From Escherichia coli (GTDB lineage: Bacteria; Pseudomonadota; Gammaproteobacteria; Enterobacterales; Enterobacteriaceae): a stretch of DNA of 64,000 bases. Below the pieces are notes generated by a model. That model worked only from the letters and a program-made list of their open reading frames with translations. It was not told the DNA's origin and made no database searches. The position numbers and the translations under genes are program-made. How positions within the stretch are numbered: position 1 is the first letter of the stretch; each line of letters begins with the position of its first letter. Location of the stretch: the NCBI RefSeq assembly GCF_024298765.1, contig NZ_CP101212.1. The stretch is one strand, 5' to 3'. Of the stretch, positions 1 to 64,000 are shown piece after piece.

Positions 1-978
1 GTGGATAAGTCCTCCGGTGAGCTGGTGACACTGACACCAAACAATAACAACACCGTACAACCTGTGGCGCTGATGCGTCTGGGCGTTTTTGTACCGACCC
101 TTAAATCACTGAAGAACAGTAAAAAAAATACACTGTCACGTACTGATGCCACGGAAGAGCTGACACGTCTTTCCCTGGCCCGTGCTGAGGGATTCGATAA
201 GGTTGAGATCACCGGCCCCCGCCTGGATATGGATAATGATTTCAAGACCTGGGTGGGGATCATTCATTCCTTTGCCCGCCATAACGTGATTGGTGACAAA
301 GTTGAACTGCCTTTTGTTGAGTTTGCAAAACTGTGTGGTATACCTTCAAGCCAGTCATCCCGCAGGCTGCGTGAGCGCATCAGCCCTTCCCTGAAGCGCA
401 TTGCCGGTACCGTGATTTCGTTTTCCCGTACCGATGAGAAGCACACCCGGGAATATATCACCCATCTGGTACAGTCAGCTTACTACGATACTGAGCGGGA
501 TATTGTGCAGTTACAGGCCGATCCCCGCCTGTTTGAACTGTACCAGTTTGACAGAAAAGTCCTTCTCCAGCTTAAGGCGATTAATGCCCTGAAGCGACGG
601 GAGTCCGCCCAGGCACTCTACACCTTTATAGAGAGCCTGCCCCGGGATCCGGCACCGATATCGCTGGCGCGGCTGCGTGCACGCCTCAATCTGAAGTCTC
701 CTGTATTTTCCCAGAACCAGACGGTCAGACGGGCAATGGAGCAGTTGCGCGAGATTGGATATCTTGATTACACGGAGATCCAGCGGGGGCGGACAAAATT
801 CTTCTGTATTCACTACCGGCGTCCCCGGTTAAAAGCGCCGAATGACGAGAGTAAGGAAAATCCGTTGCAACCTTCACCTGCGGAAAAAGTCAGTCCGGAG
901 ATGGCGGAGAAGCTTGCCCTGCTTGAGAAACTGGGCATCACGCTGGATGACCTGGAAAAACTCTTCAAATCCCGCTGA
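1..978 (+). CDS. repA: RepFIB replication initiator RepA (325 aa, GTG start at window edge)
   Basis: Full-length translation recognised as the RepFIB/P307-type RepA; iteron-like repeats immediately downstream. Confidence 0.85.
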
Positions 979-9105: not shown

Positions 9106-11737
<2,632 letters not shown>

Positions 11738-48393: not shown

Positions 48394-48485
48394 TCTTCAC
48401 CTCCATAAAAGTTATATTTAAATATAACATCCACTAAAAAAACACACCAGGCTTTAACGCACAATGTTTAATAAAAATATAACTT

Positions 48486-49139
48486 TCAACCAAACAGTAA
48501 ACCCAGCGTGGTTGCTTCCATATGCAGCAATACCGGCAGCAGCAGGCCACCACTTCTGATCCTGGCCACTGATGTAATCAACCCCACCAGGAACAGTTCT
48601 GCCAGTGTCAGCAGGTTCTGATACTGGCTGTGCGCGGCGACGAACAACAACGACGTTATCAGCGCCCCCAGCCACATCGTCCAGCAGTACCGTGAACGGA
48701 AGACGTTCAGCATAATCCCCCGGAACAGCGTTTCCTCATTCAACGGGGCAAGGATAAAGATGGTCAGCAACGTCAGGATCACGTCAGGTATGGACTTATC
48801 GGCAAAAAGTTTCGTCATAAATGGCTCAGCAGGCAGAGCCAGCGCCTTACCGAGCAGAAATACACCGACATACACCACGGCCATCGCACCGACCAGCCAC
48901 GGTACGCCAACGTTGCGCAGCTGACCAACGACCGGTAGCGGAGCTATCCAACGGCGGTATACCAGGAAAACACACAGCAGGTACATCAGAACAGTACCAT
49001 GACTGAAGAACAAATAGTTTTTTCCTGATCCATAAAGCAGAACGGCCTGCTCCATGACAAATCTGGCTCCCCAACTAATGCCCCATGCAGCCAGCATAAC
49101 CAGCATAAACTGCAGATATTGATTACGTGTTTGAATCAT
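48486..49139 (-). CDS. CPBP-family (Abi/CAAX-protease-like) membrane protein at the position of R100 tir
   Basis: 217 aa multi-TM protein with EETLFRG and HSQYQ motifs; lies between ori/repA4 region and pemI as tir does in R100. Confidence 0.55.
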   Translation of the reverse strand: MIQTRNQYLQFMLVMLAAWGISWGARFVMEQAVLLYGSGKNYLFFSHGTVLMYLLCVFLVYRRWIAPLPVVGQLRNVGVPWLVGAMAVVYVGVFLLGKALALPAEPFMTKLFADKSIPDVILTLLTIFILAPLNEETLFRGIMLNVFRSRYCWTMWLGALITSLLFVAAHSQYQNLLTLAELFLVGLITSVARIRSGGLLLPVLLHMEATTLGLLFG

Positions 49140-49850
49140 TGCATCGCCTGTAAATTTTTAACTTGTCCTATTTTTGTCATTACCACGTATATACACATGT
49201 ATAACAATTCAGATATCGTTACCAGGATATGCCGCATCAGCGGCATGGAAGGCGGCACTCTGTTGTTTCATATGATACAGGAGTAAAACCGCCGAAGCCC
49301 GGCGTAAGCCGGTACTGATTGATAGATTTCACCTTACCCATCCCCAGCCCTGCCAGACCATACCCGCTTTCAGCCATGAGAGAGCTTCTGTGCGCGGTCG
49401 GAGTGGTCCCGACGAGGGTTTACCCGAAGTCGGGGCGTATCTCCGCGTTAGCGGGCCGTGAGGGCCGCTTACGAGCGTGTACTGAGAACTTCCAGCGAGA
49501 AGACTGACAGCGATGAAGATGTAGTTACAACATTCATAATTAAAAGCGACTCTGTTCCGGCCCGAAGGGCCGGGGCGGGGCCGCTTTTCAGTTATGAGGG
49601 AGGGGCTTTGTGGTTTCAGTTCTGCGCTGGTTCGGGGTTTTTCTGGAGGTTGGTTTTGTGTGTTGTAACTAAAGTGGCTCCGGTTGGGGCCCGCCGTTTA
49701 CGGTGGGAGGTGCATATCTGTCTGTCCACAGGACAGGCAGTGAATAGGTTTTCTTTTTAAATGAATGTAATTAAGTAGTTTAAAGGAGATATAAACAGGT
49801 GTTTAAAAGATACATTGCACCCTGTAAGGGGTCAGTTTGGATATCGAAAA

Positions 49851-52800
49851 TTATTGTACGTTAAGGCTGTTTTTTGACCTTTCGACTTTAGCTGGTCTTA
49901 GCCGACGAAACTTACCAGAAGCCGGTATCCGGTTGCTTTTCCAGATATAATCACCTGTCAGATTGATGTGTTCCCAGCCCAACGGCGACAAATGCGACAG
50001 CAGTTGCTCGTTGATCTTCACCCCTTTACGCTTCAGGGCATCGACCGCTCTTTCCATATAGACGGTATTCCACAGGGATATGGCAGCCGTCAGCAGCGTC
50101 AGTCCACTGGCGCGATAGCTCTGATTTTCCGGTTTTCTGTCCCTGATTTCTCCCAGTCGGTGCATAAATACCGCACGCGCCAGCGCGTTACGGGCTTCGC
50201 CTTTATTCAGCCCCGCCTGTACCCGCCGACGCAGAGCCGGGTCGCGGAACCAGTCGAGCATAAACAGGGTTCGCTCAATGCGGCCAATTTCTCTCAGTGC
50301 TTTGGCAAGTCCGTTTTGCTTGGGATAGCTGGCAAGCTTTTTCAGCATCAGGGATGCCGTCACGGTTCCCTGCTTTATCGAGGTTGCCAGACGCAGCACT
50401 TCACGCCAGTGGATTTCGATCTCTTTCAGATTCAGGCTGGTCGTTGATATCAGTGACTGAAGCGCCGGGTATTTCTCTGCTTTCCCTTTGATAAACAGTT
50501 TTTTGTCGTGGAGATCCCTGATTCGCGGACAGAACGCAAATCCCAACAGATGCATCAGGGCAAAGACATGATCGGTGAAACCAGCGGTATCGGTGTAATG
50601 TTCCCTGATTTCCAGGTCGCTTTCGTGGTACAGCAAGCCATCGAGAACATGGGTTGAATCCCTGACCCGACTGATTATGCAGGTGTAAAACGGGCTGTAT
50701 TGATCCGAAATATGGGTATAAAACTGACGTCCAGGCTCTTGCCCATATTTCGGGTTAACCTGCCCTGCGTAGCGGCCTGAGCTGCCGGTTCTGAAATTTT
50801 GTCCATCTGATGATGACGTTGTTCCGTCTCCCCAAAATGCCGCCAACGGTCTTTTCCCCTGCGCATTTACCAGCTCTGCAAGAGCGGCTGAATAGGTTTC
50901 GTCACGGATGTACCATGCCTGAATATCTTCGAGTGATGATTTGGTGCTCCCGGGGCAGGCTTCTGCCATTTTGGTCAGGCCAAGATTGATGCCATCCGCA
51001 AGAATGGTGGTGAGGAGCAAGCGGGTATCGGGACGGGTAATGTCATTTTTTATATGCGAAAAATGTCGGGTAAACGTCGTCCAGCTGTTTACCTCATCGA
51101 GAATTTCCGTGATTTTAGGTCGCGGTAGCATGCTGTAAACCAGCTCTGCCAGCGGTGAAACCTGCGCCGGAACGCAGTTATCCAGCGGAGAGACTTTTAC
51201 GCCCCTGTCGGATATTTCCACATCGGGCAGTTCACCAAGGGCAGCCATGGCATTGACCTCTTCAAGTCTGGACTGAAGCAGGGTCATACGGCTGGTAATG
51301 TACTCATGATAATCAGCAGATACGGGCAGTGGCAGTGCCGGTGTGAGTTTGTCAAAGTCCTTCTCGGGTATGAGGTAATCATCAAAATTTTTGTAGCGGC
51401 GCGAGCCTTTAACCCAGATATCCCCGGAGCGCAACGCCCCCTTAAGCTCGCTGAGTGCACAAAACTCATAGTACTGCCGGTCAATACCCACAGGTGTAAT
51501 CACCACCTTGCGCCAGCTTTCAGGGACAAACTCAAGCGGCGCTGCCGCCGGAACTTTACGTGACTGCTTCCGGTACATATCCTTGATCACAACCAGTGCA
51601 TCAGCCAGAGGTTGCGCTGCCGGGGTTGCGACTAACTGTAAAGCGGACAACATGCGTGGGGCATATTTCCGTAATGTGCTGTATTTCTCGGTAATAATAT
51701 GCAGCGGGTCAAAATTATTTTTTCTGGCGAGATGGCGTGTTTCATCCAGACTGGCGACAAATTCAGCCCATGGGAGTATGTTTTCTATTGCGAGCCAGGG
51801 ATCGCCACCGGAATCACGGGCATCAGACAGCGCCTGACCGACATCGATGTACTGCCTCAGTTTTGACTGGATCAGCTTTCCGGTCTGCTGAAGGCGCTCA
51901 GCCTGTGTTCGTTTGGCTTTGCTGAAAAGACTATTCAGCATTCGCTCATGCAGCTCAATCACTTCGTCTGTCAGTGTGGCTCTGGCTTCTTCCAGCACGC
52001 ACACCAGGATCGCATGACGCCGGGCAGCTGAAAATCGGGTCAAATCCCGGCTACTCATCTTTCGGCCTTCCCGCGCCAGTTTCAGCAACCGGTTCTGGTG
52101 AATGGTACGATCTATACCTTCAGGTAATGCCAGCGATTCAATGCTGCTGAGCCGATCAAGATGTTGCAGCACGTTCTTACCATTGATTTTACCCGGCGGT
52201 TGCAGAAGCCATGTCAGCCTGGAAGGCTGATTATCTGATGACTCAAGTAAATGATCCAGGGCATCCCTGTGAGCCGGAGTTAACGGGGCATTCAGGGTCT
52301 GAAATACGATTTTATCGCCGCCTGCCATGACTTCAGCACAGGTACGCTCCACGACATCAATCGCGGGGATTATCACGTTGTTCTGCCGGAGATAGACAAG
52401 TAACTCTTCGGCTAGGAGAATGCCTTTATCGGTGCGCGTCGCCATCGATAACAGGTGCGTAATACAGTCCTGCTGTATTTTGCCGGTGAACGCCTTTACG
52501 CCAAGATAGCGGTACAGTTCGGTTAAATGCTCACGCCGGGTCGTATCCCGGCCGGAAAGGTAAGCAGGCCAGAGATCCCCGGTAAGCTTTAGCCTGCTGG
52601 CGATATGCTTCAGCAGCGCATCAGAGGGAGAGATTTTTTTATCCGGGGCAAAGCCGACATTTTTCAGATAGCAAAGAAGGACGGCAAAACCAAAACGGCT
52701 GGCGGGTTTACGGTGAGCACTGATAAGCGCCAGATCATGCTCACTGAAATAGGCCATTCGGGTCAGCGTTAACTCATCGTCCGGTAATGCCAGTAATGAT

Positions 52801-52880
52801 TCTCTTTCCGACAGAGAAAGAATCTGCCTCCTTGCCATATAGTTTTCCTCATAAATTATTCGATGCGTTATTTTTAACAA
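49851..52880 (-). CDS. tnpA: Tn3-family transposase TnpA
   Basis: 1009 aa; C-terminal region with GDGTTSSSDGQ...HYTDTAGFTDHVFAL motifs; 3' end runs into the IR. Confidence 0.85.
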   Translation of the reverse strand: MLKITHRIIYEENYMARRQILSLSERESLLALPDDELTLTRMAYFSEHDLALISAHRKPASRFGFAVLLCYLKNVGFAPDKKISPSDALLKHIASRLKLTGDLWPAYLSGRDTTRREHLTELYRYLGVKAFTGKIQQDCITHLLSMATRTDKGILLAEELLVYLRQNNVIIPAIDVVERTCAEVMAGGDKIVFQTLNAPLTPAHRDALDHLLESSDNQPSRLTWLLQPPGKINGKNVLQHLDRLSSIESLALPEGIDRTIHQNRLLKLAREGRKMSSRDLTRFSAARRHAILVCVLEEARATLTDEVIELHERMLNSLFSKAKRTQAERLQQTGKLIQSKLRQYIDVGQALSDARDSGGDPWLAIENILPWAEFVASLDETRHLARKNNFDPLHIITEKYSTLRKYAPRMLSALQLVATPAAQPLADALVVIKDMYRKQSRKVPAAAPLEFVPESWRKVVITPVGIDRQYYEFCALSELKGALRSGDIWVKGSRRYKNFDDYLIPEKDFDKLTPALPLPVSADYHEYITSRMTLLQSRLEEVNAMAALGELPDVEISDRGVKVSPLDNCVPAQVSPLAELVYSMLPRPKITEILDEVNSWTTFTRHFSHIKNDITRPDTRLLLTTILADGINLGLTKMAEACPGSTKSSLEDIQAWYIRDETYSAALAELVNAQGKRPLAAFWGDGTTSSSDGQNFRTGSSGRYAGQVNPKYGQEPGRQFYTHISDQYSPFYTCIISRVRDSTHVLDGLLYHESDLEIREHYTDTAGFTDHVFALMHLLGFAFCPRIRDLHDKKLFIKGKAEKYPALQSLISTTSLNLKEIEIHWREVLRLATSIKQGTVTASLMLKKLASYPKQNGLAKALREIGRIERTLFMLDWFRDPALRRRVQAGLNKGEARNALARAVFMHRLGEIRDRKPENQSYRASGLTLLTAAISLWNTVYMERAVDALKRKGVKINEQLLSHLSPLGWEHINLTGDYIWKSNRIPASGKFRRLRPAKVERSKNSLNVQ

Positions 52881-53099
52881 AAATGGTTATCGCATAAGGG
52901 TATACCCTGACACCATAATCTAAACGTGACGGCACACAATGAACGACATAGCCTATATGCGATAGATTAAATGCAATAACCTAAATGCGGTAATGCGGTG
53001 AAAAAATGTTCATCAGCACTTATTTAAGGGCATAGACGGAAGATCAGTTCACCGATCGGGCAAAAGAGATGCTGGAGCAGTTTGTTTAGGAGCGGGGGC

Positions 53100-53410
53100 A
53101 TAAAATAGCCAGTTACTACCGGGAGAATATCAGCGGTACAAAACTTGACCGACCGGAACTGGGTCGCTTACTGATGGACAGTCACCGCAATGATATTTTG
53201 CTGGTCGAGCAAATTGACCGCCAGCGCCAAAAGCAGGGAGTTGAACTCGCACATACGCTGGGTAAATATCAGGGAAAACAGGTCGCTCAGGAACGGCATC
53301 AAAAGGTACTTTACTACCGGCAGGTCAAGAAAGAAACGGCAGATGCAACAGGGTACAGCACCTCCCAGATATGCCACATTCAGGCACTGTACCGACAATC
53401 AGAATCATGA
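53100..53410 (+). pseudogene. Serine resolvase (tnpR) remnant
   Basis: Fragmentary translation ...DSHRNDILLVEQIDRQRQ... resembles resolvase core but no intact ORF. Confidence 0.35.
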
Positions 53411-53537
53411 GACTTTGGTTAAGCAGGTATGCAGAGCAGAATTTATAATCTATTTCATTCAGACTGATTAAATGGATTACAGAAGCTAAAGGGTCTTCTT
53501 TGTTCAACATGAAACCAGAAGACCCTTACTATTATTA

Positions 53538-54373
53538 TTAAAAAAGCAATTGGGTCAGATACCCCATAAGTATGGCCATACCCAGGATTACTGTCAGAAA
53601 AGCGACTATCATAGGCATTCTGAACATTGATTTAAGCAGTATTACTTCTGTCAAACTCGCTCCAGCACTACCGATTATCAAGGCCATTAATGCCCCCAGG
53701 CCCATTCCTTTAGTCATCAGCACTGATGCAAGTGGTATCACTGCCTCTGCGCGGATATACAACGGAATACCAACAACTGCACTCAGCGGTATGGCTAAGG
53801 GATTATCTGCTCCGGCATGAGCTGCAATCCACTCTGAAGGGATAAAGCCATAAATAAATGAACCTATTAATACACTTAACAAAAGATAAGGCAGAACATC
53901 CTTAAACTGCTGTAAGGCATCTTTCATAGCTAACTTTATTGGGCCAGAGGTGGTATTCGTTGTGAGATTCACATTGCCCAGATTCTCGCTGCTGCAACAG
54001 CTAACAGCTGGTTGTTCAGATGATATTGATGAACAACACGCTGATACGTTCTGCTCGTTCTTTACCGTCCTTAAGTTAATTATGGGGTTCGCTGATGAAG
54101 TACAGCAACTCGTTTTTAAAGGCAATTGAGTCGAGCTAGTGCTGCAACAACTGGAACCCGCCGACGTTTTTACCGAAGCTTCGGAATCATCGCATTTCGT
54201 GGTGCAACCACTTGATGCTGAGTTTTTGTGATCAACAATATGACGTTCAAATCCTAGTAAATCCAATACGATACTGGCAAGGACTGAGACACCGGCAGCG
54301 ATGATCGCGTACAACAAAGTTACTTTCCAGCCAAAGGTAACCCACATTAACCCCACGATAATGGGATTAAGCG
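53538..54373 (-). pseudogene. ArsP-like permease, C-terminal part (downstream of IS66 insertion)
   Basis: Continues in frame from the N-terminal part across the 8-bp duplication (…SPLLN|PIIVGLMWVTFG…); contains a Cys/Ser-rich loop with repeated vicinal CC. Confidence 0.55.
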
Positions 54374-54402
54374 TAAGCGGCTCGTCAGAACCGTATTGAT
54401 AT

Positions 54403-55974
54403 TTACTGAGAGCTCAGATCAACTTTCCAGGGCAACAGATCGCGTACCCGGTTTGCCGGCCAGTCCTGGATATGTTCAATGACGTAACGCAGCCACTTTT
54501 CTGGCTCCACATTGTTCAGACGGCATGTGCCGATCAGCGAGTACAACACCGCCGCATGTTCACCACCGCTGTCGGAACCCGCGAACATCCAGTTTTTCCG
54601 GCCTACGGCCACTCCCCGTAAGGCGTTCTCTGCGATGTTGTTGTCGATTTCCACCCAGCCATTACTGCAGTACACGTTCAGTGCATCCCACTGTTTCAGC
54701 AGGTATGCGAACGCTTTTGCCGTATCTGAGTGACGCGACAGTGTTTTCATCTGTTGCTGTATCCAGTCATACAGTGACTGCATCAGTGGCGCGGCTCTGG
54801 CTTTTCTTGCCGCCAGACGCTGTTCTGCTGAACAGCCCCGGACCTCTGCCTCGATGGCATACAGTTCACCGATACGCTGCAGGGCTTCCGTGGTGATGTC
54901 GGTGGGCGCTCTTGCATGCACATCGTGGATTTTTCTCCGGGCATGAGCCATACACGCGGCTTCCGTTATTCTGCCGGATTCGTATAACACCCGGTAACCA
55001 CCGTAAGCATCGGCCTGAAGCACACCGCTGTAACCGGCCAGGTGATTTTGTGGATGGATACCTTTCCGGTCCGGACTGTACGCGAACCAGACCGCCGGGG
55101 GCATCTGTGAACCGGCGTTGCGATCATCACGGACGTAGACCCACAGCCGGGCTGTCCGGGTTTTACCGCTGCCCGGCTCCTGGACCGGGACGGGGATATC
55201 ATCGGCATGGACTTTACCGGGCATCAGCACATACTGGCGCAGGACGTCATACAGCGGCTCCAGCAGTTCAGCAACAGCACCTGTCCAGCGCCCCAGTGTG
55301 GCACGGCTCAGCTCCACGCCCTGGCGACGGTATATTTCTGACTGGCGGTATAACGGCAGATGGTCTGCATATTTCCCGGTGACAACATGGGCCAGAAGCC
55401 CCGCTCCGGCATAACTGCGTGCAATGGGTTTTGAAGGCACCGGTGCCTGCACGATATGGTCGCACCGGCAACAGGCCTGTTTCGGACGTTGTGTTTCGAT
55501 AACCTTAAAGGCACTGCTGATAAGCTCCAGTTGCTCTGACACATCACATCCCAGTGGACTGAGTTCACCACCACAGGCCGGACAGCATTCCTCTTCCGGC
55601 CGGATGACCCGGGGTTCACGGGGAAGTGAAGCCGGTAACGGTTTACGGGCTGAAGACTGGCGCAGGGGGGATGGCAGTACCGGGTCATATTGCTCACCCA
55701 GCGTTTCTGCCATTTCTTCCTGAAGTGCGCTGATTCGCTCCTGTGCTTCCTGTATCTGCCGTTCGGTTTTTGCGCGAAGTTTTTCTGAGCTTTTACCGAA
55801 CTGCATACGCTGCAGTTTCGCAACCAGCGCCTTCAGCCGGTTGATTTCGGAAGCATAAGCCGCCACCCGCTGTGAGAGCAGGCGGTTGTATTCGGCCATC
55901 TGGCGGATGGTGTCCTGTTGCGTCTGCAACAGTGCCTGCAGGCGGGCATTCTCATGAGCAAGTGAGGTGTCCAT
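54403..55974 (-). CDS. IS66-family transposase TnpC
   Basis: 523 aa with zinc-finger-like CPACGG...CRCDH and DDE domain. Confidence 0.85.
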
Positions 55975-55993
55975 ATCCTCACTTTACAACGGG

Positions 55994-56341
55994 TTATATA
56001 CGGATTCCAGCGCGTTCCGTTCGTTTCGGGTGCTTCCAGTCGATGCCCTCGAGAAGCATGGATAACTGAGCCGGAGTAAGGTGCACCTTGCCGTCACGGG
56101 TGACTGGCCAGACGAAGCGGCCCCGCTCCAGGCGTTTGGTGAAGAGGCACAGTCCGTCACTGTCAGCCCACAACACTTTTATCTGGTCACCCCGGCGTCC
56201 GCGGAAGATGAACAGGTGTCCGGAGAACGGGTCATCCTTCAGGACGTTCTGAACTTTTGAGGCCAGGCCGTTAAAGCCATTTCGCATATCGGTGATACCT
56301 GCAACCAGCCAGATACGCGAACCTGCAGGGAGAGATATCAT
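55994..56341 (-). CDS. IS66-family TnpB
   Basis: 115 aa. Confidence 0.8.
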   Translation of the reverse strand: MISLPAGSRIWLVAGITDMRNGFNGLASKVQNVLKDDPFSGHLFIFRGRRGDQIKVLWADSDGLCLFTKRLERGRFVWPVTRDGKVHLTPAQLSMLLEGIDWKHPKRTERAGIRI

Positions 56342-57018
56342 CAGTGGCTGCTCCCTTTTATTTCGCGGATAAGTGTCTGTAATAACGCCGGCGTCAGTTT
56401 ACCTTTAAGCCTGAGAGTTCCGGCCGGCAGAACCAGCTCACAACACAGACTGTCGGACGGTGTATTTATCTGCTCTGGTTCCTGTGCGGGGGCCGGGATT
56501 TTATTATCCGGCTCCGGCGTTAACGTCACGGGAAGCAGTGCCGGCATATTTTTTCCGGAAGGCAGCAGGCCACCTTTCCGGTATTGATGGCGCCAGTTGA
56601 AGAGCAGGTTATCGTTGATTCCGTTTTCCCGGGCGATCTGCGCCACACAGGCTCCGGGCTGCAGTGACTGCTCCACTAAGGCGATTTTAAACTCATAAGG
56701 GAAGTTGGGCCGCCGGGGACGTTTTTTTACCACGGGGGCTTCGGATATAACGGTGCTTTCAGGACGTACGACTGGTACCGTGGAAAATTGTCCGTAAAGG
56801 CAGGCATCAAGTTCCTGCTCCGACATGCCTGCGGGCAAAGGCCACGAAAGGCCAGCTCTCCGAAAGCGCACGAACATACTACAAACTGTTGATTTTGATA
56901 CACCCAGGCGACGCCCGGCCACAACCCGGGGTAAATGTTCTTCAAAGTGAAGACGTAAAGCTTCAGTGATCCAGGTCCGGTGTTTCATACGATAGTGTCC
57001 ATTAAAAATGATGGACAT
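56341..57018 (-). CDS. IS66-family accessory protein TnpA (orf1)
   Basis: 225 aa, HTH-containing. Confidence 0.7.
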   Translation of the reverse strand: MSIIFNGHYRMKHRTWITEALRLHFEEHLPRVVAGRRLGVSKSTVCSMFVRFRRAGLSWPLPAGMSEQELDACLYGQFSTVPVVRPESTVISEAPVVKKRPRRPNFPYEFKIALVEQSLQPGACVAQIARENGINDNLLFNWRHQYRKGGLLPSGKNMPALLPVTLTPEPDNKIPAPAQEPEQINTPSDSLCCELVLPAGTLRLKGKLTPALLQTLIREIKGSSH

Positions 57019-57071
57019 TATTTTTGTAGAGCCGGAGGAAACAGACCAGACGGTTTAAATGAGCCGGTTAC

Positions 57072-57396
57072 GATTAAGCAACGGTGAAACAAACAAAAAA
57101 GTGAGTGTCGGACCAAACCCTGCTTTCGCCGACAACAACCCTCGTAGCATTGGAATTGTTGAGCAACTACAGAAAGGGGTAACGGCTCCCAACAACGAGG
57201 CCAGCAGGTAGCCTTTTCCTTTTTTCGCCCCTATCAATTGCTGGATTTTATGGTCCGGGACCTTTTGCCTTATCAGGCTCACACCGGCACTGATGACAAT
57301 AAACAGCAAAGATAGCTCGACGGCCAAAAACAAAAACATCTCTGCGGCATCTTGCAGCATAGAAATCCAACTATTCATACTAAACCCTCTTGACAA
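57072..57396 (-). pseudogene. ArsP-like permease, N-terminal part with TPFCSCSTIP motif
   Basis: 108 codons ending at the IS66 junction. Confidence 0.55.
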
Positions 57397-57483
57397 AATC
57401 TACGTTTCTAGAATAATCGAAATATAATTCTGGTCAAGATATTTCTGGTATTATCGAAATATCATTAGACAGAGGGTTGTCAC

Positions 57484-57807
57484 ATGCAACTGGAAGAAGT
57501 AGCTAAAGCACTAAAAGAGCTGGGTCACCCGACCCGTTTGTTCATATTCAAACATCTTGTAAAAGCTGGAGAACAAGGTTTGCCTGTAGGTGAATTGCAA
57601 AAGCAGCTTGGCATTCCCTCATCAACGTTAAGTCATCATATTTCAGCCCTGGTATCAGTAGGGCTCGTCACACAAAACCGGGAGAGTCGAACGCTCATGT
57701 GTGTCTCTCAATACGAAATACTGGAAGCTATCATCGAATTCTTACGTGAAGAGTGCTGTGTAAACAGTAAAACAGATGTTGCGGAACACGCTGGCAAAAA
57801 TGGATAA
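57484..57807 (+). CDS. ArsR/SmtB-family metalloregulatory repressor
   Basis: 107 aa winged-HTH protein divergent from the permease gene; dyad tcgaaatat...atatttc in the shared intergenic region. Confidence 0.7.
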   Translation: MQLEEVAKALKELGHPTRLFIFKHLVKAGEQGLPVGELQKQLGIPSSTLSHHISALVSVGLVTQNRESRTLMCVSQYEILEAIIEFLREECCVNSKTDVAEHAGKNG

Positions 57808-57908
57808 GTAACCGGAAAACTCATAACTGTCATGATTGACGAAAGCTGCATCGGGTGATGCTGCCAACTTACTGATTTAGTGTATGATGGTGTTTTTGAG
57901 GTGCTCCA

Positions 57909-58184
57909 GTGGCTTCTGTTTCTATCAGCTGTCCCTCCTGTTCAGCTACTGACGGGGTGGTGCGTAACGGCAAAAGCACTGCCGGACACCAGCGCTATCT
58001 CTGCTCTCACTGCCGTAAAACATGGCAACTGCAGTTCACTTACACCGCTTCTCAACCCGGTACGCACCAGAAAATCATTGATATGGCCATGAATGGCGTT
58101 GGATGCCGGGCAACTGCCCGCATTATGGGCGTTGGCCTCAACACGGTTTTACGTCACTTAAAAAACTCAGGCCGCAGTCGGTAA
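57909..58184 (+). CDS. insA: IS1 InsA
   Basis: 91 aa. Confidence 0.85.
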
Positions 58185-58606
58185 CCTCGCGCATACAACC
58201 GGGCAGTGATGTGATTGTCTGCGCTGAAATGGACGAACAGTGGGGCTACGTCGGTGCTAAATCACGTCAGCGCTGGCTGTTTTACGCGTATGACAGGATA
58301 CGGAGGACAGTTGTGGCGCACGTTTTCGGTGAACGCACTCTGGCCACACTGGAGCGTCTTCTGAGCCTGCTGTCACCCTTTGACGTGGTGATATGGATGA
58401 CGGATGGCTGGCCGCTGTATGAATCCCGCCTGAAGGGAAAGCTGCACGTAATCAGCAAGCGATATACGCAGCGAATTGAGCGGCATAACCTGAATCTGAG
58501 GCAGCACCTGGCACGGCTGGGACGGAAGTCGCTGTCGTTCTCAAAATCGGTGGAGCTGCATGACAAAGTCATCGGGCATTATCTGAACATAAAACACTAT
58601 CAATAA
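58103..58606 (+). CDS. insB: IS1 InsB
   Basis: 167 aa. Confidence 0.85.
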
Positions 58607-58999
58607 GTTGGAGTCATTACCCGCATGATTCAGCAGATAAATCCTTGAAAGCAGGTACTCAGCCCTCAGTGAACAGAATAAGTCAGCGTAATGTACTTTA
58701 GTGCTGACCACGTGCTCTGTATGATACAGAATCTATCTACTATAAACGAAAATACAGCACGATCAATGCTCACACTCTATATGGGACGTTCGTACCTGGA
58801 CATGATTATCTGTGTTCAATGTCCCCGCATGACCGTCTTAACATCCAGAATATTACGTTTCCAAAAAAACCAGAAATGATAAAAAATGAGCTTAACGTAC
58901 AATAATTTTCGATATCCAAACTGACCCCTGTAAGGCTGGCGCCTGGCGCTTTATGACATGAACGGTTGTAACCTTATGGGGAAGTCCATTGCAGTTAAA

Positions 59000-59008
59000 T
59001 GTGGATAA
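59000..59008 (-). promoter_or_regulatory. DnaA box (TTATCCACA on minus strand), probable RepFIIA oriR
   Basis: tgtggataa on plus strand, downstream of repA1 in the position expected for oriR. Confidence 0.4.
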
Positions 59009-59111
59009 GCAAAATTCCCCGTCTGTGAGGCGTGTTTTGTATCAAAAACAGGGGGGGCCAGATGCACCAGAAGGGTAAGCGTGCAGCAAGAACCGTATTG
59101 ACGGGGATGTG

Positions 59112-60650
59112 TTATTCAGTCGGCAGTGCTACGCGCCAGGGGAGCAGTTCGCCGACCCGGTTTATCGGCCAGTCGGCTATGACGTCAAGGACATAGCGGA
59201 GGTAGCTTTCTGGCTCCACTCCGTTCAGTTTGCACGTCCCGATCAGGCTGTACAGCAGCGCTCCCCGCTCTCCTCCATGATCCGAACCGAAGAACAGGTA
59301 GTTTTTGCGGCCCAGACTGACCATCCGCAACGCATTTTCAGCGATGTTATTGTCCGCCTCAGCCCAGCCATCATCTGCATAGTACGTCAGCGCCGGCCAC
59401 TGGTTCAGGGCGTATGCGAACGCTTTCGCCAGTTCTGAGTGTCGCGACAGGGTTTTCATCTTTTCACGCAGCCAGCTTTCCAGGGATTTCAGCAGCGGTT
59501 TCGTTTTCAACTGACGTTCGGCAAGGCGCTGCTCCGCCGTCATTCCCCTTATCTCTGCCTCGATGGCGTACAGTTCGCCGATCCGTTTCAGCGCTTCCTC
59601 CGTCAGGGCTGACGGGGTGCGAACGTGCACATCGTGGATTTTACGGCGGGCGTGAGCCCAACAGGCGGCTTCCGTTATCCGGCCATCCCGGTACAGCTCG
59701 TTGAACCCGGCGTATGCATCCGCCTGCAGTACACCACTGAACCCCGCAAGATGGGTCTGCGGATGGATGCCTTTTCTGTCCGGGCTGTAAGCGAACCACA
59801 CCGCCGGCGCCAGCGTTGACCCGGCGTTACGGTCGTCACGAACGTAGGTCCATAACCGCCCGGTCTTCGTTTTCTTATTGCCTGGCAACAGCACCGGGAC
59901 AGGCGTGTCATCAGCATGGAGCTTACCGTCAGTCAGCACATAGTCCTGAAGCGCTTCTTCCAGCGGTGACAGTAGCCGGCAGCATGCATCCACCCAGCCC
60001 GACAGCAGTGAACGACTCAGCTCCACGCCCTGGCGGCCGTACATTTCAGACTGGCGGTACAGCGGGGTGTGCTCTGCATACTTTGAGATCAGCACGCGGG
60101 CCAGCAGCCCCGGTCCTGCGATACCCCGCTCGATGGGCCGTGAAGGCGCGGGGGCCTGCACGATGGCATCGCACTGAGTACAGGCATGCTTTTCACGTAC
60201 AGTCCGGATAACCCGGAAGGCGCTGCGCATCAGCTCCAGCTGTTCGGCGGCATCCTCACCCAGATAGCTCAGCGAGCCTCCACATTCCGGGCAGCATGAC
60301 GCTGCCGGCAGCAGCCGTTTTTCATCGCGGGGGAGTGATTCGGGGAACGGTTTGCGGGTGCGGGTTTGACGCAGCGGGCGCTGCACGGCCGGGTCGTCAA
60401 CCCGACCGGTAAGGGTATCACTTTCTTTCTGAAGTGCCTTCAGGTCAGCTTCCATCTGTGCGATACGACGGGAGACTTTTTCCGAGCGGCTGCCGAAGTT
60501 CATCCGGCGCAGCTTATCCAGCTGTGCCTGCAGATGGTCTATTTCGCGTTCACGCTCGTTCAGCTTTTCCTGCAGGGCACGGTTCAGCGCCTCCTGTTCG
60601 GCAAGGAGACGTTTCAGTGCATTGATATCGTCAGGAAGTGAGCTGCTCAT
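59112..60650 (-). CDS. IS66-family transposase TnpC
   Basis: 512 aa, paralogous to 54403..55974. Confidence 0.85.
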
Positions 60651-60698
60651 ACCGGGTATATTACCAGGCTCATTCAGCGTCGACCAGGATAAAGAGGC

Positions 60699-61046
60699 TT
60701 ACAACATAGTCAGGGACGTAAGCAGTCTTTTAGGCTGCCGCCAGTCGATACCTTCCAGCAGCATCGCCAGCTGTGCCGGTGTGAGGAACACTTTGCCATC
60801 CCGGGCTGACGGCCAGGCGAAGCGGCCGCGCTCCAGCCGTTTGGTCAGCAGACACAGTCCATCGCCGGTAGACCAGAGGAGCTTTACCTGACTGCCATTA
60901 CGCCCACGGAAGATAAAAACGTGACCTGACATCGGATCGTCTTTCAGCGTCGTCTGCACCTTTGCCGCCAGGCCGTTGAAGCCGTTTCTCATATCGGTGA
61001 TGCCAGCGACCAGCCAGATCTTTGTCCCTGATGGTAATGGGATCAA
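60699..61046 (-). CDS. IS66-family TnpB
   Basis: 115 aa. Confidence 0.8.
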   Translation of the reverse strand: MIPLPSGTKIWLVAGITDMRNGFNGLAAKVQTTLKDDPMSGHVFIFRGRNGSQVKLLWSTGDGLCLLTKRLERGRFAWPSARDGKVFLTPAQLAMLLEGIDWRQPKRLLTSLTML

Positions 61047-61447
61047 CGTTTGAGCTCCCGTATCAGCAGGTTCAGGATATTTTCACTGATGGCACCATTC
61101 AGACGGAGTGATCCGTGCCGGAACGTCACTTCACAGCTGATATTGAGTGATTCAGGTGTCGCAGTAGCTACAGGTTGTGACCGGGGGGAGGTTGTAGGGA
61201 CAACATCTTCGGCATCAAGTGTTATCGGGAGCAGCTCAGGCACGTTGTTTTCTGTTGTTGAAGGAGGACGTAGTTTTCCTTCGCGCCAGTACTGGCGCCA
61301 CTTGAACAGCAAATTATCGTTGATCCCATGCTCACGAGCGAGTTGCGCTACGGAGATCTCTGGTCGATGCGAGAGTTCAACCATTTTGATTTTGAACTCA
61401 ACGGGATAATTAGGGCTTTTTTTACGCACTGCGGTTAATGATTTCAT
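61043..61447 (-). CDS. IS66-family accessory protein TnpA (orf1)
   Basis: 134 aa. Confidence 0.7.
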   Translation of the reverse strand: MKSLTAVRKKSPNYPVEFKIKMVELSHRPEISVAQLAREHGINDNLLFKWRQYWREGKLRPPSTTENNVPELLPITLDAEDVVPTTSPRSQPVATATPESLNISCEVTFRHGSLRLNGAISENILNLLIRELKR

Positions 61448-61645
61448 GGATAGCGTCCACCATATTTGGTGTCCACTATTCTCTCAGGAATTTCAGGATC
61501 TGCCAGACGGTGCTGAGACGACGCTTACCCAGAAGGTGGATGATGAGGTTGTTTTTTGTATGAGGTGCTGCTTTTTTGTTCGCTGGCAGGCTTCAGGCGT
61601 GCGAATGCCTCCGGTGCGGGCCGGATTATTCAGAAGAGGTCACTT

Positions 61646-62503
61646 TCAGGGGGAAGCTGTGGCCAGCCGGCTGTAATTACGGTTACGTGACAGAATCATG
61701 CGCTCTTTCACACGACGCTCCACTTCGCGTTTTACCGCCTCACGATTGGCAGTGAAGCGCCCTTCCGAGATTTCACGCGTCAGCTGCCGTTTCACCAGGG
61801 TGACGATATCCTGACGTTCCCTGTTCGCATCACGACGCGCACGGGCACGCTTTATTCCACGGGACTTAAGCTCTGTCTGGTAACTGCGGAAACGCTCACG
61901 CACAAAACGCCAGGCTTTCGCTATCAGTTCATCCATACCCAGGGTATCCAGCCCCTGCTTTTTGCGCTGTCTGTTTTCCCATTCAACACGACTGCGGCGC
62001 GCAGCAACCACTGCATCCTCAGACACATCAAGGGCGGCAAATAACGCCGGTGTGAACGTGATATCGGTCGGAATGTAGCACCCGATAAGCGGATCATATT
62101 CCGTCTGGTAGGTAATCAGTCCCAGCTCTGCAAGGAACGTCAAGGCTCGGGAGGCCCGGGTGATGGAGAGTTTTCCGGCAGCAGACTCCGTCGCCAGTCC
62201 GCACTCAATGGCCAGCGTAGTGATGGAGCACTGGACGCGGTTGGCCAGCGGGTCATAGTGAAAACACAGCCCCTGCAGCAGCGCATCAATAGCCCGGCGA
62301 CGCAGTACCGGTGGCATGCGCCGACGCAGTCCCTTCGAACGGGCATGTGCCACATGAATGGCGAAATCAAAACGGGAGGTGAAGCCCACCGCCTTTTCCA
62401 TCAGTTTTTCGCAGAACTTCAGCGTTCCGGCACCTTCACGGGGTGTGAACACCGGATTCGGATTTTTAACCTGTGAATAGTATTTTTGAAGGAGATCAGC
62501 CAT
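61646..62503 (-). CDS. repA1: RepFIIA replication initiator RepA1
   Basis: 285 aa from [24 protein letters not shown]...; recognised as IncFII RepA1. Confidence 0.85.
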
Positions 62504-62990
62504 GTCCCCCTCCAACACTATTCCCCCTCCTACGGGCGGTAACTAGCTCGTCTGGGCCGACACGTAAAGTTTCGAACATATCTGGTCTGAACCAGATGGT
62601 TCCTCCATCAAAAGCGATGAGATGAAGATCATTATCAAGAGTTTTGAGGGCTCTCCAAACACGAGTGTATGAACCTCCACTACAAACTGAAAGCTCTTTA
62701 ACAGATAAGTTAACTTTGTTCGTATCAGGGATGTAGTGTGCGCACATTACTTGTACGAGGGAAACATAAAAACTAACCATCGACGCGCTGATTTTATTTT
62801 TACGTTTGCCATGCGCTATTGCAAGCAAACCTCTGATGAAGATCAGATGCTTGAAGGAGTCAAAATGAGCCCTTTTCTGGAGAAGGCTGCAAAACGGGTG
62901 AGGATACTTGCTGGAATCAATGTGAAGATCTGATTCAATCCCACCCGCTATTACTGAATGTGTTTCATGATTAGCCACACCATCCTGCAC
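62496..62990 (-). CDS. Leader-position ORF homologous to the N-terminal half of RepA1; stop overlaps repA1 ATG (ATGGCTGA)
   Basis: Hand alignment: FCSLLQKRA vs FCEKLMEKA; [29 protein letters not shown] vs [29 protein letters not shown]; [11 protein letters not shown] vs [11 protein letters not shown]. Confidence 0.4.
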
Positions 62991-63109
62991 TTACAATGCA
63001 CAGAAGGAGTGAGCACAGAAAGAAGTCTTGAACTTTTCCGGGCATATAACTATACTCCCCGCATAGCTGAATTGTTGGCTATGCGGTTTTATGGGGCCCC
63101 GGTAATCTT

Positions 63110-63210
63110 TCTAGTCGCCAAACTTGAAGAAGATTATCGGGGTTTTCGCTTTTCTGGCTCCTGTAAATCCACATCAGAACCAGTTCCCTGCCACCTTACG
63201 GCGTGGCCAG
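63110..63210 (+). ncRNA. copA: CopA-like antisense RNA region of the IncFII copy-control system (approximate)
   Basis: Stem-loop ctgccac-cttacggc-gtggcag between repA2 and the repA1 leader; boundaries not determined. Confidence 0.35.
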
Positions 63211-63276
63211 CCACAAAATTCCTTAAACGATCAGCAATCTACCACTCACTCCTGAGATAAGCAAGAATGTGAATAT

Positions 63277-63534
63277 TTACGAAGTCGCTCTGCGTTTCAG
63301 CTCTGATTCAATCAGTTTTTCAAGCATCTGCGCCTGAGTAATACCTTCCTCATCCGCCAGTTCACTCAGCCTGTCTTTTAACCGGGCCTGAATAACCGCA
63401 TGAAAAGCCTTATGAGTGTTGCTTCTGCGAGCCAGAGAAGCTCTTTGCCTCTCTCTGGCCGGAACAGGGTTACCTTTCCGGTATGTACGCTTGGTGCCTG
63501 ATGAGGAAGTCACTGCATTTTCTGTCTGCGACAT
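63277..63534 (-). CDS. repA2: RepA2/CopB copy-number repressor
   Basis: 85 aa [31 protein letters not shown]... Confidence 0.8.
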
Positions 63535-63817
63535 CTCGCCTCCTCAATTCTCAAACAGGGATCGTTTCGCAGAGAATACTACAGTTTTTTGAAATCAGCG
63601 ACTTGAAAGTTGTGACGATGATCTGTGTTGGCGCACAAATCATGTCTGATTACGACCGTTTAATGTGATTTTGATAATGAAATGACTGAAAAGCTGGAAA
63701 TGCCTTAGCCAGGGTGCCGGCCCCGGGCGGGACCGGCTGTTTCTGGTATATAGGGTGTCTGCCCCTGAAATACCTCACACTTCCGGAAAGCGGGGACTTC
63801 CGTCCCCGCCCGGCAGC

Positions 63818-63967
63818 TTACTTCCGTGCTTCGTAGGCCAGAGTTACCTGCACCACTGTATTTCCTCTGTGAATATTCAGCTCACATAACCGTTCCCTGA
63901 ATATCAGTGAAAAACACAACACCGTGGCGCACACGGCGAGCAACCCGATAAGGGCATATTTCGTCAT
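63818..63967 (-). CDS. srnB: Hok/Gef-family toxin (SrnB-like), 49 aa; below the ORF-track size cut-off
   Basis: Minus-strand translation MTKYALIGLLAVCATVLCFSLIFRERLCELNIHRGNTVVQVTLAYEARK; hairpin cggggacttccgtccccg just downstream. Confidence 0.7.
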   Translation of the reverse strand: MTKYALIGLLAVCATVLCFSLIFRERLCELNIHRGNTVVQVTLAYEARK

Positions 63968-64000
63968 AAACTTTGACCTCTCAGCAAAGAAGAGGCTACA

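What the first reader, a model, noticed from the sequence alone, without database searches (positions are those of the whole stretch)
58929..61645. RepFIIA origin region bracketed by two transposon insertions
A DnaA box (TTATCCACA, minus strand, about 59000) marks the probable oriR downstream of repA1. An IS66-family element (59075..61528, TSD CCAGAAGG) sits between the repA1 stop and this box, about 110 bp past the stop. A 9.1-kb Tn3-family transposon (TSD TGTAA) begins about 70 bp on the other side of the box. Because RepA1 acts in cis on a nearby origin, separating repA1 from ori by 2.45 kb may disable this replicon and leave RepFIB as the working one.
Basis: partly seen in the sequence, partly recalled or inferred. 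Interest (0 to 1): 0.5.

Follow-up and report, generated by a model that had tools for sequence, protein, structure and literature searches.

The report
Transposon-split origin of a spare plasmid replicon
One of this virulence plasmid's two replication systems has an insertion sequence between its initiator gene and its origin and a 9.1-kb transposon inside the origin, so it is almost certainly dead and the plasmid relies on its RepFIB replicon, which is an ordinary fate for a redundant replicon.

Summary
These are the DnaA box (59000-59008, minus strand), the ISEc22 IS66-family element (59075-61528, 8-bp duplication CCAGAAGG) and the 9,101-bp Tn3-family transposon (49828-58928, 5-bp duplication TGTAA).

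Removing both elements in silico restores a sequence colinear with R100 repA-CIS-oriR. The IS lies 110-117 nt past the repA1 stop, inside the 175-nt CIS spacer.

The transposon does not merely flank the origin. It sits 66 nt past the DnaA box. The box and the proximal RepA-binding DNA stay next to repA1, while all three A+T-rich TTTAAA 9-mers are 9.1 kb away. The origin is split, and this is a more decisive lesion than the IS.

Plasmid pG12a is 100% identical on both sides, carries the IS and lacks the transposon, so the IS came first. The transposon/origin junction occurs in none of 72,556 plasmids or 5,426 E. coli genomes.

repA1, tap, copA and copB are intact. An intact RepFIB initiator gene lies at 1-975.

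This parallels the F plasmid, whose FII/FIC replicon is also inactivated by an inserted mobile element. A by-product is that the CIS-oriR interval is repeatedly hit by IS66-family elements, several times at the same 8 bp.

The parts
63277..63534 (-). copB/repA2, the transcriptional repressor of repA1; intact
   Evidence: 85-aa ORF. NF010256 'replication regulatory protein RepA' scores 132.9 bits against a cut-off of 87. It is colinear with R100.
62971..63270 (-). copA/CopT control region and the tap leader-peptide gene (tap is 62971-63045); intact
   Evidence: Window 62969-63270 aligns with R100 at 92%. The tap coordinates were transferred from the pVM01 annotation, which is 99.8% identical here.
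62496..62978 (-). 160-aa ORF between tap and repA1, absent from R100. It is a diverged N-terminal RepA paralogue.
   Evidence: The R100 alignment shows a 483-bp insert at this point. BLASTP against RepA1 gives 33% identity, E 1e-8, with residues 73-150 matching 74-170. There is no Pfam or NCBIfam hit. It is annotated as a hypothetical protein, WP_001273588.1, in pG12a and pVM01.
61646..62503 (-). repA1, the IncFII-family initiator; full length (285 aa)
   Evidence: TIGR03474 incFII_RepA scores 580 bits against a cut-off of 446.9. It is 100% identical to the pG12a repA (WP_000774297.1), the same protein as in pVM01, whose CIS and ori are uninterrupted.
61529..61645 (-). repA1-proximal part of CIS (117 nt, including one copy of the 8-bp duplication)
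   Evidence: Alignment with R100 L003 44671-44787. In the reconstructed sequence, 175 nt separate the repA1 stop from the DnaA box.
59075..61528 (-). ISEc22 (IS66 family), with its genes co-directional with repA1. The 8-bp duplication CCAGAAGG lies at 59067-74 and 61529-36.
   Evidence: The identical element sits at the identical site in pG12a.
59009..59074 (-). ori-proximal part of CIS (66 nt, including the other copy of the duplication)
   Evidence: Alignment with R100 L003 44781-44845.
59000..59008 (-). DnaA box TTATCCACA of oriR
   Evidence: It aligns with the R100 box at L003 44846-54.
58929..58999 (-). repA-proximal portion of oriR, still attached to the DnaA box. It contains the first TGCAATG heptamer (58987-58993) and ends in the TGTAA duplication (58929-33).
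   Evidence: [quoted passage not shown]
49828..58928 (-). Tn3-family transposon (9,101 bp).
- tnpA: 49851-52880.
- Permease gene: split into 53538-54356 and 57055-57396.
- ArsR-like gene: 57484-57807.
- IS1: 57854-58621.
- Ends: perfect 38-bp inverted repeats.
- Flanking 5-bp duplication: TGTAA.
   Evidence: The same element without the nested IS (6,402 bp by subtraction here) sits at another site in pVM01 with its own duplication TTGTA.
54373..57071 (-). Nested ISCro1-like IS66-family element (2,699 bp) inside the transposon's permease gene, with 8-bp duplication GATTAAGC
   Evidence: junctions; absent from the pVM01 copy; IS66 TnpA, TnpB and transposase; 98.8% identical to ISCro1 in pSTEC719_4.
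49715..49827 (-). Distal portion of oriR, now 9.1 kb from the DnaA box. It holds the second TGCAATG (49813-49819) and three TTTAAANNN 9-mers starting at 49807, 49784 and 49761, in a stretch of 65-85% A+T.
   Evidence: The 1,428-bp segment that contains it (window 48400-49827) is 98.8% identical to R100. The lower bound assumes the 188-bp minimal oriR starts at the DnaA box; that is my own knowledge of the R1 literature and is not verifiable here.
1..978 (+). RepFIB initiator gene (325 aa), the probable working replicon. Iteron-like repeats follow at 1004-1246.
   Evidence: tblastn gives 99.4% identity over all 325 residues to my recalled RepFIB RepA sequence. Pfam Rep3_N scores E 1.2e-10. Five repeats share the core CAGCTTATAT. 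The same gene at the same coordinates in pT28R-2 is annotated as a RepB-family initiator.

Best explanation
This is the IncFIC(FII)-type second replicon of a ColV-like, multi-replicon IncF virulence plasmid, inactivated by two successive transposition events.

1. ISEc22 inserted into the CIS spacer 110-117 nt after the repA1 stop. This moved the origin about 2.5 kb away from the cis-acting initiator gene.
2. A Tn3-family transposon, itself carrying IS1 and a nested ISCro1-like element, then inserted into the minimal origin 66 nt after the DnaA box.

As a result, the DnaA box and the adjoining RepA-binding DNA remain near repA1. The second half of the RepA-binding region, the three A+T-rich 9-mers where strands should open, and everything downstream are 9.1 kb away. 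RepA1 can no longer assemble an open complex on a contiguous origin, so this replicon should not fire. The plasmid is then maintained by RepFIB.

Shown here: the positions, duplications, order of events and intactness of the genes. Inferred: loss of origin function and dependence on RepFIB.

The control genes copB, copA and tap, and repA1 itself, are still intact. The dead replicon will therefore still be scored by replicon typing and may still exert incompatibility.
For: - Deleting both elements in silico, with one copy of each duplication, gives a sequence colinear with R100 repA-CIS-oriR-CPBP gene at 93-99% identity.
- In that sequence the IS duplication starts 110 nt after the stop, the DnaA box starts after 175 nt, and the transposon duplication TTACA occupies +75 to +79 from the first base of the box. 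The three TTTAAANNN 9-mers (+95, +118, +141) and the 65-85% A+T stretch all lie beyond it.
- The literature held here says oriR of R1 is 188 bp, contains the DnaA box, and that RepA binds immediately downstream of the box (PMC5883639).
- In pEC958, where RepFII is the working replicon, the oriV region, repA1, repA4, copA and repA6 are protected from transposon insertion (PMC4398462).
- pG12a equals the window minus the transposon at 100% identity over 1,430 + 5,075 bp. This gives the exact empty site and the order of events.
- The same transposon sits elsewhere in pVM01 with a different 5-bp duplication, so it is a genuinely mobile unit.
- The RepFIB initiator is intact and followed by iteron-like repeats.
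- No other replication initiator was found among the window ORFs of at least 150 aa that were scanned against NCBIfam.
- Precedent: the FII/FIC replicon of F itself is inactive because of an inserted mobile element (PMC11983097).
Against: - No functional test was possible.
- The exact limits of the 188-bp oriR, the roughly 100-bp RepA footprint and the CIS experiments come from primary papers (Masai et al. 1983; Masai & Arai 1987 and 1988; Giraldo & Diaz 1992) that the library does not hold. Placing the transposon inside the minimal oriR therefore rests partly on my own knowledge.
- repA1 and its control elements show no decay, so continued use of the replicon cannot be excluded from sequence alone.
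- The RepFIB upstream iterons and ribosome-binding site lie outside the window. PMC11983097 shows that a FIB replicon can be defective through its ribosome-binding site.
Confidence: 0.85

Rival explanations
1. The replicon still works. RepA1 reaches the DnaA-box half of the origin across the IS, and the A+T-rich terminal part of the transposon now abutting that half acts as a substitute unwinding element.
For: - repA1, tap, copA and copB are fully intact.
- The transposon end next to the origin half (about 58860-58928) is visibly A+T-rich.
- RepA of R1 is described as primarily, not absolutely, cis-acting (PMC3495755).
- Plasmids with only an IS in CIS are not rare: 31 + 9 PLSDB records.
Against: - The second TGCAATG repeat and all three conserved 9-mers are removed to 9.1 kb away.
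- This part of the origin is 97-99% conserved between R100 and this replicon, although CIS itself is only about 93-95% conserved. That argues the sequence is required.
- The transposon/ori junction occurs in no other plasmid or E. coli genome searched.
- An intact RepFIB initiator gene is present, so nothing requires this origin to fire.
Confidence: 0.07
2. The IS66-family insertion in CIS alone had already silenced the replicon. The later transposon hit then landed in DNA that was already non-functional.
For: - The IS insertion came first (pG12a).
- RepA is primarily cis-acting, and a rho-dependent terminator in CIS is reported to be needed for cis action (title of Masai & Arai 1988, cited in PMC3495755).
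- Every typed plasmid I examined with an IS66-family element between repA and ori also carries IncFIB.
Against: - IncFIC(FII) replicons seemingly nearly always co-occur with IncFIB (my impression, not measured here), so the co-occurrence discriminates poorly.
- No experimental data on the tolerated repA-ori distance could be retrieved here.
- The oriR distal to the IS is perfectly conserved in pG12a.
Confidence: 0.45
3. The arrangement is an assembly artefact, with repeat-rich mobile elements misplaced by the assembler.
For: The region contains IS1, two IS66-family elements and a transposon that all occur elsewhere in many plasmids.
Against: - Both insertions have exact target duplications of the length expected for their family, and perfect terminal repeats.
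- Removing them restores a known sequence to the base.
- The nested IS has its own 8-bp duplication.
Confidence: 0.02

Closest known systems
RepFIC (FII-type) replicon of the F plasmid, inactivated by a transposon
   Same: A redundant FII/FIC-family replicon in a multi-replicon IncF plasmid, disabled by an inserted mobile element while another replicon maintains the plasmid (PMC11983097). From my own knowledge, the element in F is Tn1000, which is also a Tn3-family transposon.
   Different: In F the insertion truncates repA1 (my own knowledge). Here repA1 and all its control elements are intact, and the lesions are in the non-coding CIS spacer and inside oriR. There are also two successive hits rather than one.
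R100/NR1 and R1 basic replicon (copB-copA-tap-repA1-CIS-oriR)
   Same: Same gene order and the same DnaA box, A+T-rich 9-mers and downstream CPBP/pemIK genes. Identity is 93-99% once the insertions are removed.
   Different: - An extra 160-aa ORF lies between tap and repA1.
- CIS is interrupted by ISEc22.
- oriR is split by a 9.1-kb transposon.
pG12a (NZ_CP129273.1, E. coli from chicken liver)
   Same: 100% identical across 48400-49829 and 58926-64000, including ISEc22 at the same site with the same duplication. It is typed IncFIB + IncFIC.
   Different: It lacks the Tn3-family element, so its oriR is contiguous. It is the exact pre-insertion state.
pVM01 (NC_010409.1) and other ColV-like IncFIB/FIC plasmids
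   Same: Same replicon type, including the 160-aa ORF and the identical RepA1 protein. It carries the same Tn3-family transposon (tnpA, permease, ArsR-like gene, IS1).
   Different: CIS and oriR are uninterrupted. The transposon sits upstream of copB near hok, with duplication TTGTA and no nested ISCro1.

Membership tests
IncFII-family basic replicon (RepFIIA/RepFIC) | Full-length RepA1 initiator of the IncFII family | tested here: met
   TIGR03474 scores 580 bits against a cut-off of 446.9; 285 aa.
IncFII-family basic replicon (RepFIIA/RepFIC) | Upstream control module: copB, the copA antisense region and the tap leader peptide | tested here: met
   copB matches NF010256. The copA/tap region aligns with R100 at 92%. 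tap is annotated in the near-identical pVM01.
IncFII-family basic replicon (RepFIIA/RepFIC) | repA1 start codon overlapping the end of tap (direct translational coupling) | tested here: not met
   A 160-aa ORF occupies the position of the R100 repA start. repA1 begins 475 nt later, overlapping that ORF's stop (ATGGCTGA). This is the normal state of the FIC(FII)-type replicon.
IncFII-family basic replicon (RepFIIA/RepFIC) | Uninterrupted CIS spacer of about 170 bp between repA1 and oriR | tested here: not met
   The reconstructed spacer is 175 nt. It is interrupted after nt 117 by the 2,454-bp ISEc22.
IncFII-family basic replicon (RepFIIA/RepFIC) | Contiguous oriR: DnaA box, RepA-binding DNA and A+T-rich 9-mers within about 188 bp | tested here: not met
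   All the elements are present and conserved, but they are separated by the 9,101-bp transposon 66 nt after the DnaA box.
IncFII-family basic replicon (RepFIIA/RepFIC) | Autonomous, polA-independent replication | not testable with these tools
   This needs a mini-replicon experiment.
IS66 family insertion sequence (ISEc22) | Three ORFs (tnpA, tnpB and a DDE transposase), terminal repeats starting GTAAGCG, and an 8-bp target duplication | tested here: met
   NF038385/NF047595, NF033819 and NF033517 hits. Termini and the CCAGAAGG duplication were read directly. The identical copy is annotated ISEc22.
Tn3-family transposon | Large Tn3-type transposase, roughly 38-bp terminal inverted repeats starting GGGG, and a 5-bp target duplication | tested here: met
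   NF033527 scores 1129 bits against a cut-off of 500. The 38/38 inverted repeats and the TGTAA duplication were read directly. An independent copy has duplication TTGTA.
Tn3-family transposon | Resolvase gene and res site for cointegrate resolution | tested here: inconclusive
   No resolvase-like ORF was seen between tnpA and the permease gene. The one small ORF there that was scanned (53168-53398) had no NCBIfam hit. The pVM01 annotation lists no gene there. No res-site search was done.
RepFIB replicon | Rep_3-family initiator flanked by iterons on both sides | tested here: inconclusive
   The initiator is intact and downstream iteron-like repeats are present. The upstream iterons, promoter and ribosome-binding site lie before window position 1.

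The most novel reading that the evidence does not exclude
The roughly 250-bp CIS-oriR interval of FII/FIC replicons may be a preferred landing zone for IS66-family elements.

- The 8 bp hit here, CCWGAAGG, is the centre of the palindrome CACCWGAAGGTG. It has been used independently by ISEc22 in two diverged backbone alleles, and by ISCro1 in both orientations.
- A second 8-bp site, GTCTGTGA, 13-20 bp before the DnaA box, was hit by ISCro1 in both an R100-type and a FIC-type backbone.
- Further ISCro1 insertions lie in the A+T-rich 9-mers.

This would mean either that IS66-family transposases choose their targets through a structure or protein complex at the terminator or origin, or that silencing the second replicon is positively selected in multi-replicon plasmids.
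Probability: 0.4. Interest if true: 0.5.

Novelty: new member of a known kind. Interest (0 to 1): 0.3.

Why it matters
**Typing and curing.** Replicon typing would still score this plasmid as IncFIC(FII) plus IncFIB, because the typed genes are intact. Probably only RepFIB can fire. Curing or incompatibility strategies aimed at the FII/FIC replicon would then miss the working replicon, and predictions of host range or copy number from replicon content would be wrong.

**Evolution.** It is a clean, datable example of a redundant replicon decaying through non-coding lesions while its genes remain perfect. The three states are an intact relative, an IS-only relative, and this plasmid with both the IS and the transposon.

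**A natural test.** The IS-only relatives offer a natural test of how much distance the cis-acting RepA1 tolerates.

**The hot spot.** The recurrent IS66-family hits at identical base pairs give a tractable handle on target choice for a poorly understood IS family.

Tried and rejected
1. **Primary papers.** I tried to read the papers that define oriR and CIS (PMC390076, PMC338310, PMC98921, PubMed 3041379). None is held, so the oriR limits rest on secondary statements and my own knowledge.
2. **ETEC plasmids.** Hits H2-H9 looked like more examples of ISEc22 next to repA. In p503829_77 the IS lies upstream of copB, not in CIS, so I rejected them.
3. **Single-replicon counter-example.** I looked for a plasmid with an IS in CIS and no second replicon, as a natural test of the cis-distance idea. 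All typed examples carry IncFIB. pT28R-2 is described in PMC12115866 as F18:A-:B-, yet it has a RepB-family (FIB-type) initiator gene at 1-978.
4. **Orientation bias.** I suspected an orientation bias for IS66-family insertions. My first junction query could only find one orientation. An inverted chimeric query found 9 more records, so no bias can be claimed.
5. **Shared ancestry of the IS.** I considered that ISEc22 in the window and in the FCI1 plasmid descend from one event. The IS copies are 100% identical while both immediate flanks differ by 6-8% and both copies of the duplication carry the same A/T difference. Independent insertion is more likely.
6. **DnaA box statistics.** The box is not significant by count alone.
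7. **The 160-aa ORF.** NCBIfam and Pfam gave nothing. Only pairwise BLASTP against RepA1 was informative.
Full report
**Observation.**
- repA1 occupies 61646-62503 on the minus strand. It scores 580 bits on the IncFII RepA model TIGR03474 against a cut-off of 446.9.
- Downstream of it in the direction of transcription lie 117 nt of spacer. Next comes an IS66-family element at 59075-61528, flanked by the 8-bp duplication CCAGAAGG (59067-74 and 61529-36) and ending in GTAAGCG...CGCTTAC.
- The IS's three ORFs match IS66 TnpA, TnpB and transposase models. The 100% identical copy in pG12a is annotated ISEc22.
- A further 58 nt beyond that duplication (66 nt from the IS end) is TTATCCACA at 59000-59008.
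- Seventy-one bp beyond the box is the end of a Tn3-family element at 49828-58928. It has perfect 38-bp inverted repeats and the 5-bp duplication TGTAA at 49823-27 and 58929-33. Its transposase scores 1129 bits on NF033527.
- The 9-mer alone is not statistically meaningful: 2 matches against 0.51 expected. Its significance is positional, as shown next.

**Placement against R100.** I removed both elements in silico, keeping one copy of each duplication, and aligned the result with R100 (NC_002134, locus L003).
- The alignment is colinear from copB through repA, the spacer, the origin and the CPBP/pemIK genes. The only large gap is a 483-bp insert between tap and repA1.
- Piecewise identities are 93.0% for repA1, 95.3% for the 148 bp around the DnaA box, and 98.8% for the 1.4 kb containing the distal origin.
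- In the reconstructed sequence, 175 nt separate the repA1 stop from the DnaA box. This matches the CIS spacer of roughly 170 bp known for R1 (my own knowledge).
- The IS duplication starts at nt 110 of that spacer, so ISEc22 lies inside CIS.
- The transposon duplication (TTACA on the repA strand) occupies +75 to +79 from the first base of the DnaA box.
- Everything that makes the A+T-rich half of the origin lies on the far side. This includes a second copy of the heptamer TGCAATG (+83; the first is at +15). It also includes three TTTAAANNN 9-mers at +95, +118 and +141, within a stretch of 65-85% A+T.
- These now sit at window 49761-49822, 9.1 kb from the box.

**Why this matters for function.**
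- PMC5883639 states that oriR of R1 is 188 bp and contains the DnaA box. [quoted passage not shown]
- From my own knowledge of Masai et al. 1983, Masai & Arai 1987 and Giraldo & Diaz 1992, the order in oriR is DnaA box, then about 100 bp of RepA-binding DNA, then A+T-rich 9-mers. The library does not hold these papers.
- On either basis the transposon is inside the origin, not beside it. It separates initiator binding from the unwinding region.
- In pEC958, where RepFII is the working replicon, saturating transposon mutagenesis recovered significantly fewer insertions than expected in the oriV region, repA1, repA4, copA or repA6 (PMC4398462). That is direct evidence that such insertions are not tolerated when the replicon is needed.
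- I therefore judge the origin non-functional, with confidence about 0.85. This step is inference, not demonstration.

**Order and rarity of the events.**
- pG12a (NZ_CP129273.1, E. coli from chicken liver) matches window 48400-49829 and 58926-64000 at 100%. The two blocks abut in pG12a. It has ISEc22 at the same site with the same duplication but no transposon.
- So ISEc22 came first, and pG12a is the exact empty site for the transposon.
- The transposon/origin junction (58729-59128) is found in none of 72,556 PLSDB plasmids and none of 5,426 complete E. coli genomes.
- The ISEc22/CIS junction occurs in pG12a and in one other plasmid, from strain FCI1.
- The transposon is a real mobile unit. 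The same element (tnpA, permease, ArsR-like gene, IS1) sits upstream of copB in pVM01 with its own duplication TTGTA.
- In the window it has additionally acquired a 2,699-bp ISCro1-like element (54373-57071, duplication GATTAAGC) that splits the permease gene.

**What remains intact, and what replicates the plasmid.**
- copB, the copA/tap region and repA1 are undamaged. RepA1 is the same protein (WP_000774297.1) as in pVM01, whose CIS and origin are uninterrupted.
- The window starts exactly at the start codon of a RepFIB initiator gene (1-975). It is 99.4% identical to my recalled RepFIB RepA, has the Pfam Rep3 WH1 domain, and is followed by five iteron-like repeats.
- The related pT28R-2 record starts at the same gene, annotated as a RepB-family initiator.
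- No other initiator appeared among the window ORFs of at least 150 aa that I scanned. Those ORFs otherwise encode typical ColV-type cargo (mig-14, hlyF-like, ompT, ets, iro), a class 1 integron and many IS elements.
- RepFIB is thus the likely working replicon, but its upstream iterons and ribosome-binding site are outside the window. PMC11983097 shows that a FIB replicon can be crippled at its ribosome-binding site.

The idea that 2.45 kb between the cis-acting repA1 and ori may disable the replicon remains open.
- RepA is described as primarily cis-acting, and CIS is reported to contain a rho-dependent terminator needed for cis action (PMC3495755 citing Masai & Arai 1988).
- I looked for a natural test, namely a plasmid whose only replicon has an IS in CIS, and found none.
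- Every typed plasmid with an IS66-family element in this interval also carries IncFIB. These are pG12a, pSTEC719_4, pTS14, pHSKP1-2, pT28R-2, the MS 85-1 plasmid, pA68_p1, pAPEC2908 and pESBL3284-IncF.
- pT28R-2 is called F18:A-:B- in PMC12115866, yet it has the FIB initiator gene.
- FIC(FII) replicons seemingly nearly always travel with FIB (my impression, not measured here), so this co-occurrence is weak evidence.

**Comparison with what is known.** Decay of a redundant replicon in multi-replicon IncF plasmids is established. PMC11983097 states that the FII replicon of F is inactive because of an inserted mobile element (it says 'IS insertion' in one passage and 'transposon insertion' in another). 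This case is a new member of that kind. Its particulars are that the lesions are purely non-coding (CIS and oriR), that there are two, and that close relatives preserve the intact and intermediate states.

**By-product: recurrent IS66-family insertions.** While looking for relatives I found that this interval is hit repeatedly by IS66-family elements.
- At the very 8 bp used here:
  - ISEc22 in the FCI1 plasmid has duplication CCTGAAGG. The IS copies are 100% identical to each other, but both flanks are 6-8% diverged from the window.
  - ISCro1 sits there in the same orientation in pSTEC719_4.
  - ISCro1 sits there inverted in pAPEC2908, where the distal origin has been lost.
  - The 8 bp are the centre of the short palindrome CACCWGAAGGTG.
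- A second site, GTCTGTGA (window 59022-29, 13-20 bp before the DnaA box), carries ISCro1 in both a FIC-type backbone (pT28R-2) and R100-type backbones (pTS14, pHSKP1-2).
- Further ISCro1 ends lie at about 59056-63 (pA68_p1). Others lie inside the A+T-rich 9-mers at 49778-86 (MS 85-1 plasmid) and about 49789 (pESBL3284-IncF).
- PLSDB holds 31 records with ISCro1 co-directional with repA and 9 with it inverted within reach of the repA 3' end.
- Other TSDs of these elements (GATTAAGC, TAACCTTT in PMC12115866) share no consensus. This looks like a regional or structural preference, or selection, rather than sequence specificity. I could not test it against a proper null.

**Verdict.** The feature is an ordinary though unusually clean example of replicon decay. 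Interest is 0.3, and the IS66 hot spot is the most novel reading still open.

Noticed in passing
window 62496-62978 (minus strand): A 160-aa ORF lies between tap and repA1 and is absent from R100. It starts at the GTG homologous to the R100 repA start, and its stop overlaps the repA1 ATG (ATGGCTGA). It is therefore probably translated in a tap -> ORF -> repA1 coupling chain. BLASTP shows it is a diverged paralogue of RepA residues 74-170 (33% identity, E 1e-8). It has no Pfam or NCBIfam hit. It looks like the 5' remnant of a FIC-type repA retained in a FIC/FII hybrid replicon. PMC5883639 reports an ORF1 between tap and repA in a replicating mini-plasmid.
   Followed up: partly
window 59022-59074 and 49778-49790; loci L005, L007, L009-L015: The CIS-oriR interval is hit recurrently and independently by IS66-family elements (ISEc22, ISCro1). 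The identical 8 bp CCWGAAGG was used at least four times, including both orientations. The identical 8 bp GTCTGTGA was used in two different backbones. PLSDB holds 31 + 9 such records.
   Followed up: partly
window 54373-57071: An ISCro1-like IS66-family element (2,699 bp, duplication GATTAAGC) is nested in the permease gene of the Tn3-family transposon. The pVM01 copy of the transposon lacks it. The window therefore holds two different IS66-family elements within 5 kb.
   Followed up: yes
window 49828-58928; L006 8021-14414; L002 5257-6329: The Tn3-family transposon (tnpA, a Cu/Zn-efflux-like permease, an ArsR-like regulator and an internal IS1) has no recognisable resolvase gene, yet it has moved to at least two sites (duplications TGTAA and TTGTA). 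Sequence 97.5% identical to its IS1 plus adjoining right end also lies next to iutA in Salmonella ColV-type plasmids.
   Followed up: partly
window 1-3: The window begins exactly at the start codon (GTG) of the RepFIB initiator gene, as does the pT28R-2 record. The source record was therefore probably rotated to this gene. The RepFIB promoter, ribosome-binding site and upstream iterons cannot be inspected.
   Followed up: partly
pT28R-2 (NZ_CP049355.1), L016 1-978: PMC12115866 describes pT28R-2 as IncF18:A-:B-, but the record carries a RepB-family (FIB-type) initiator gene at 1-978, and MOB-suite types it IncFIB + IncFIC. MOB-suite also labels R100 as 'IncFIA', so these replicon labels need care.
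   Followed up: partly
window 9538-11061 and 23997-26560: A group II intron reverse transcriptase/maturase gene lies near ompT/hlyF. A class 1 integron (intI1 with dfrA1-like and aadA cassettes) lies next to IS26 within the ColV-type virulence region (mig-14, hlyF-like, ompT, etsABC, iroBCDEN).
   Followed up: no
window 15301-15309: The only other perfect DnaA-box 9-mer in the window lies inside the macB-like ets transporter gene. It is probably a chance match.
   Followed up: no
L012 (NZ_CP146652.1) and L013 (CP142530.1): In two relatives whose CIS or oriR is disrupted by ISCro1, repA1 also carries an internal deletion (about window 62168-62220; 265-aa product). This suggests coding decay follows once the origin is lost.
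   Followed up: no
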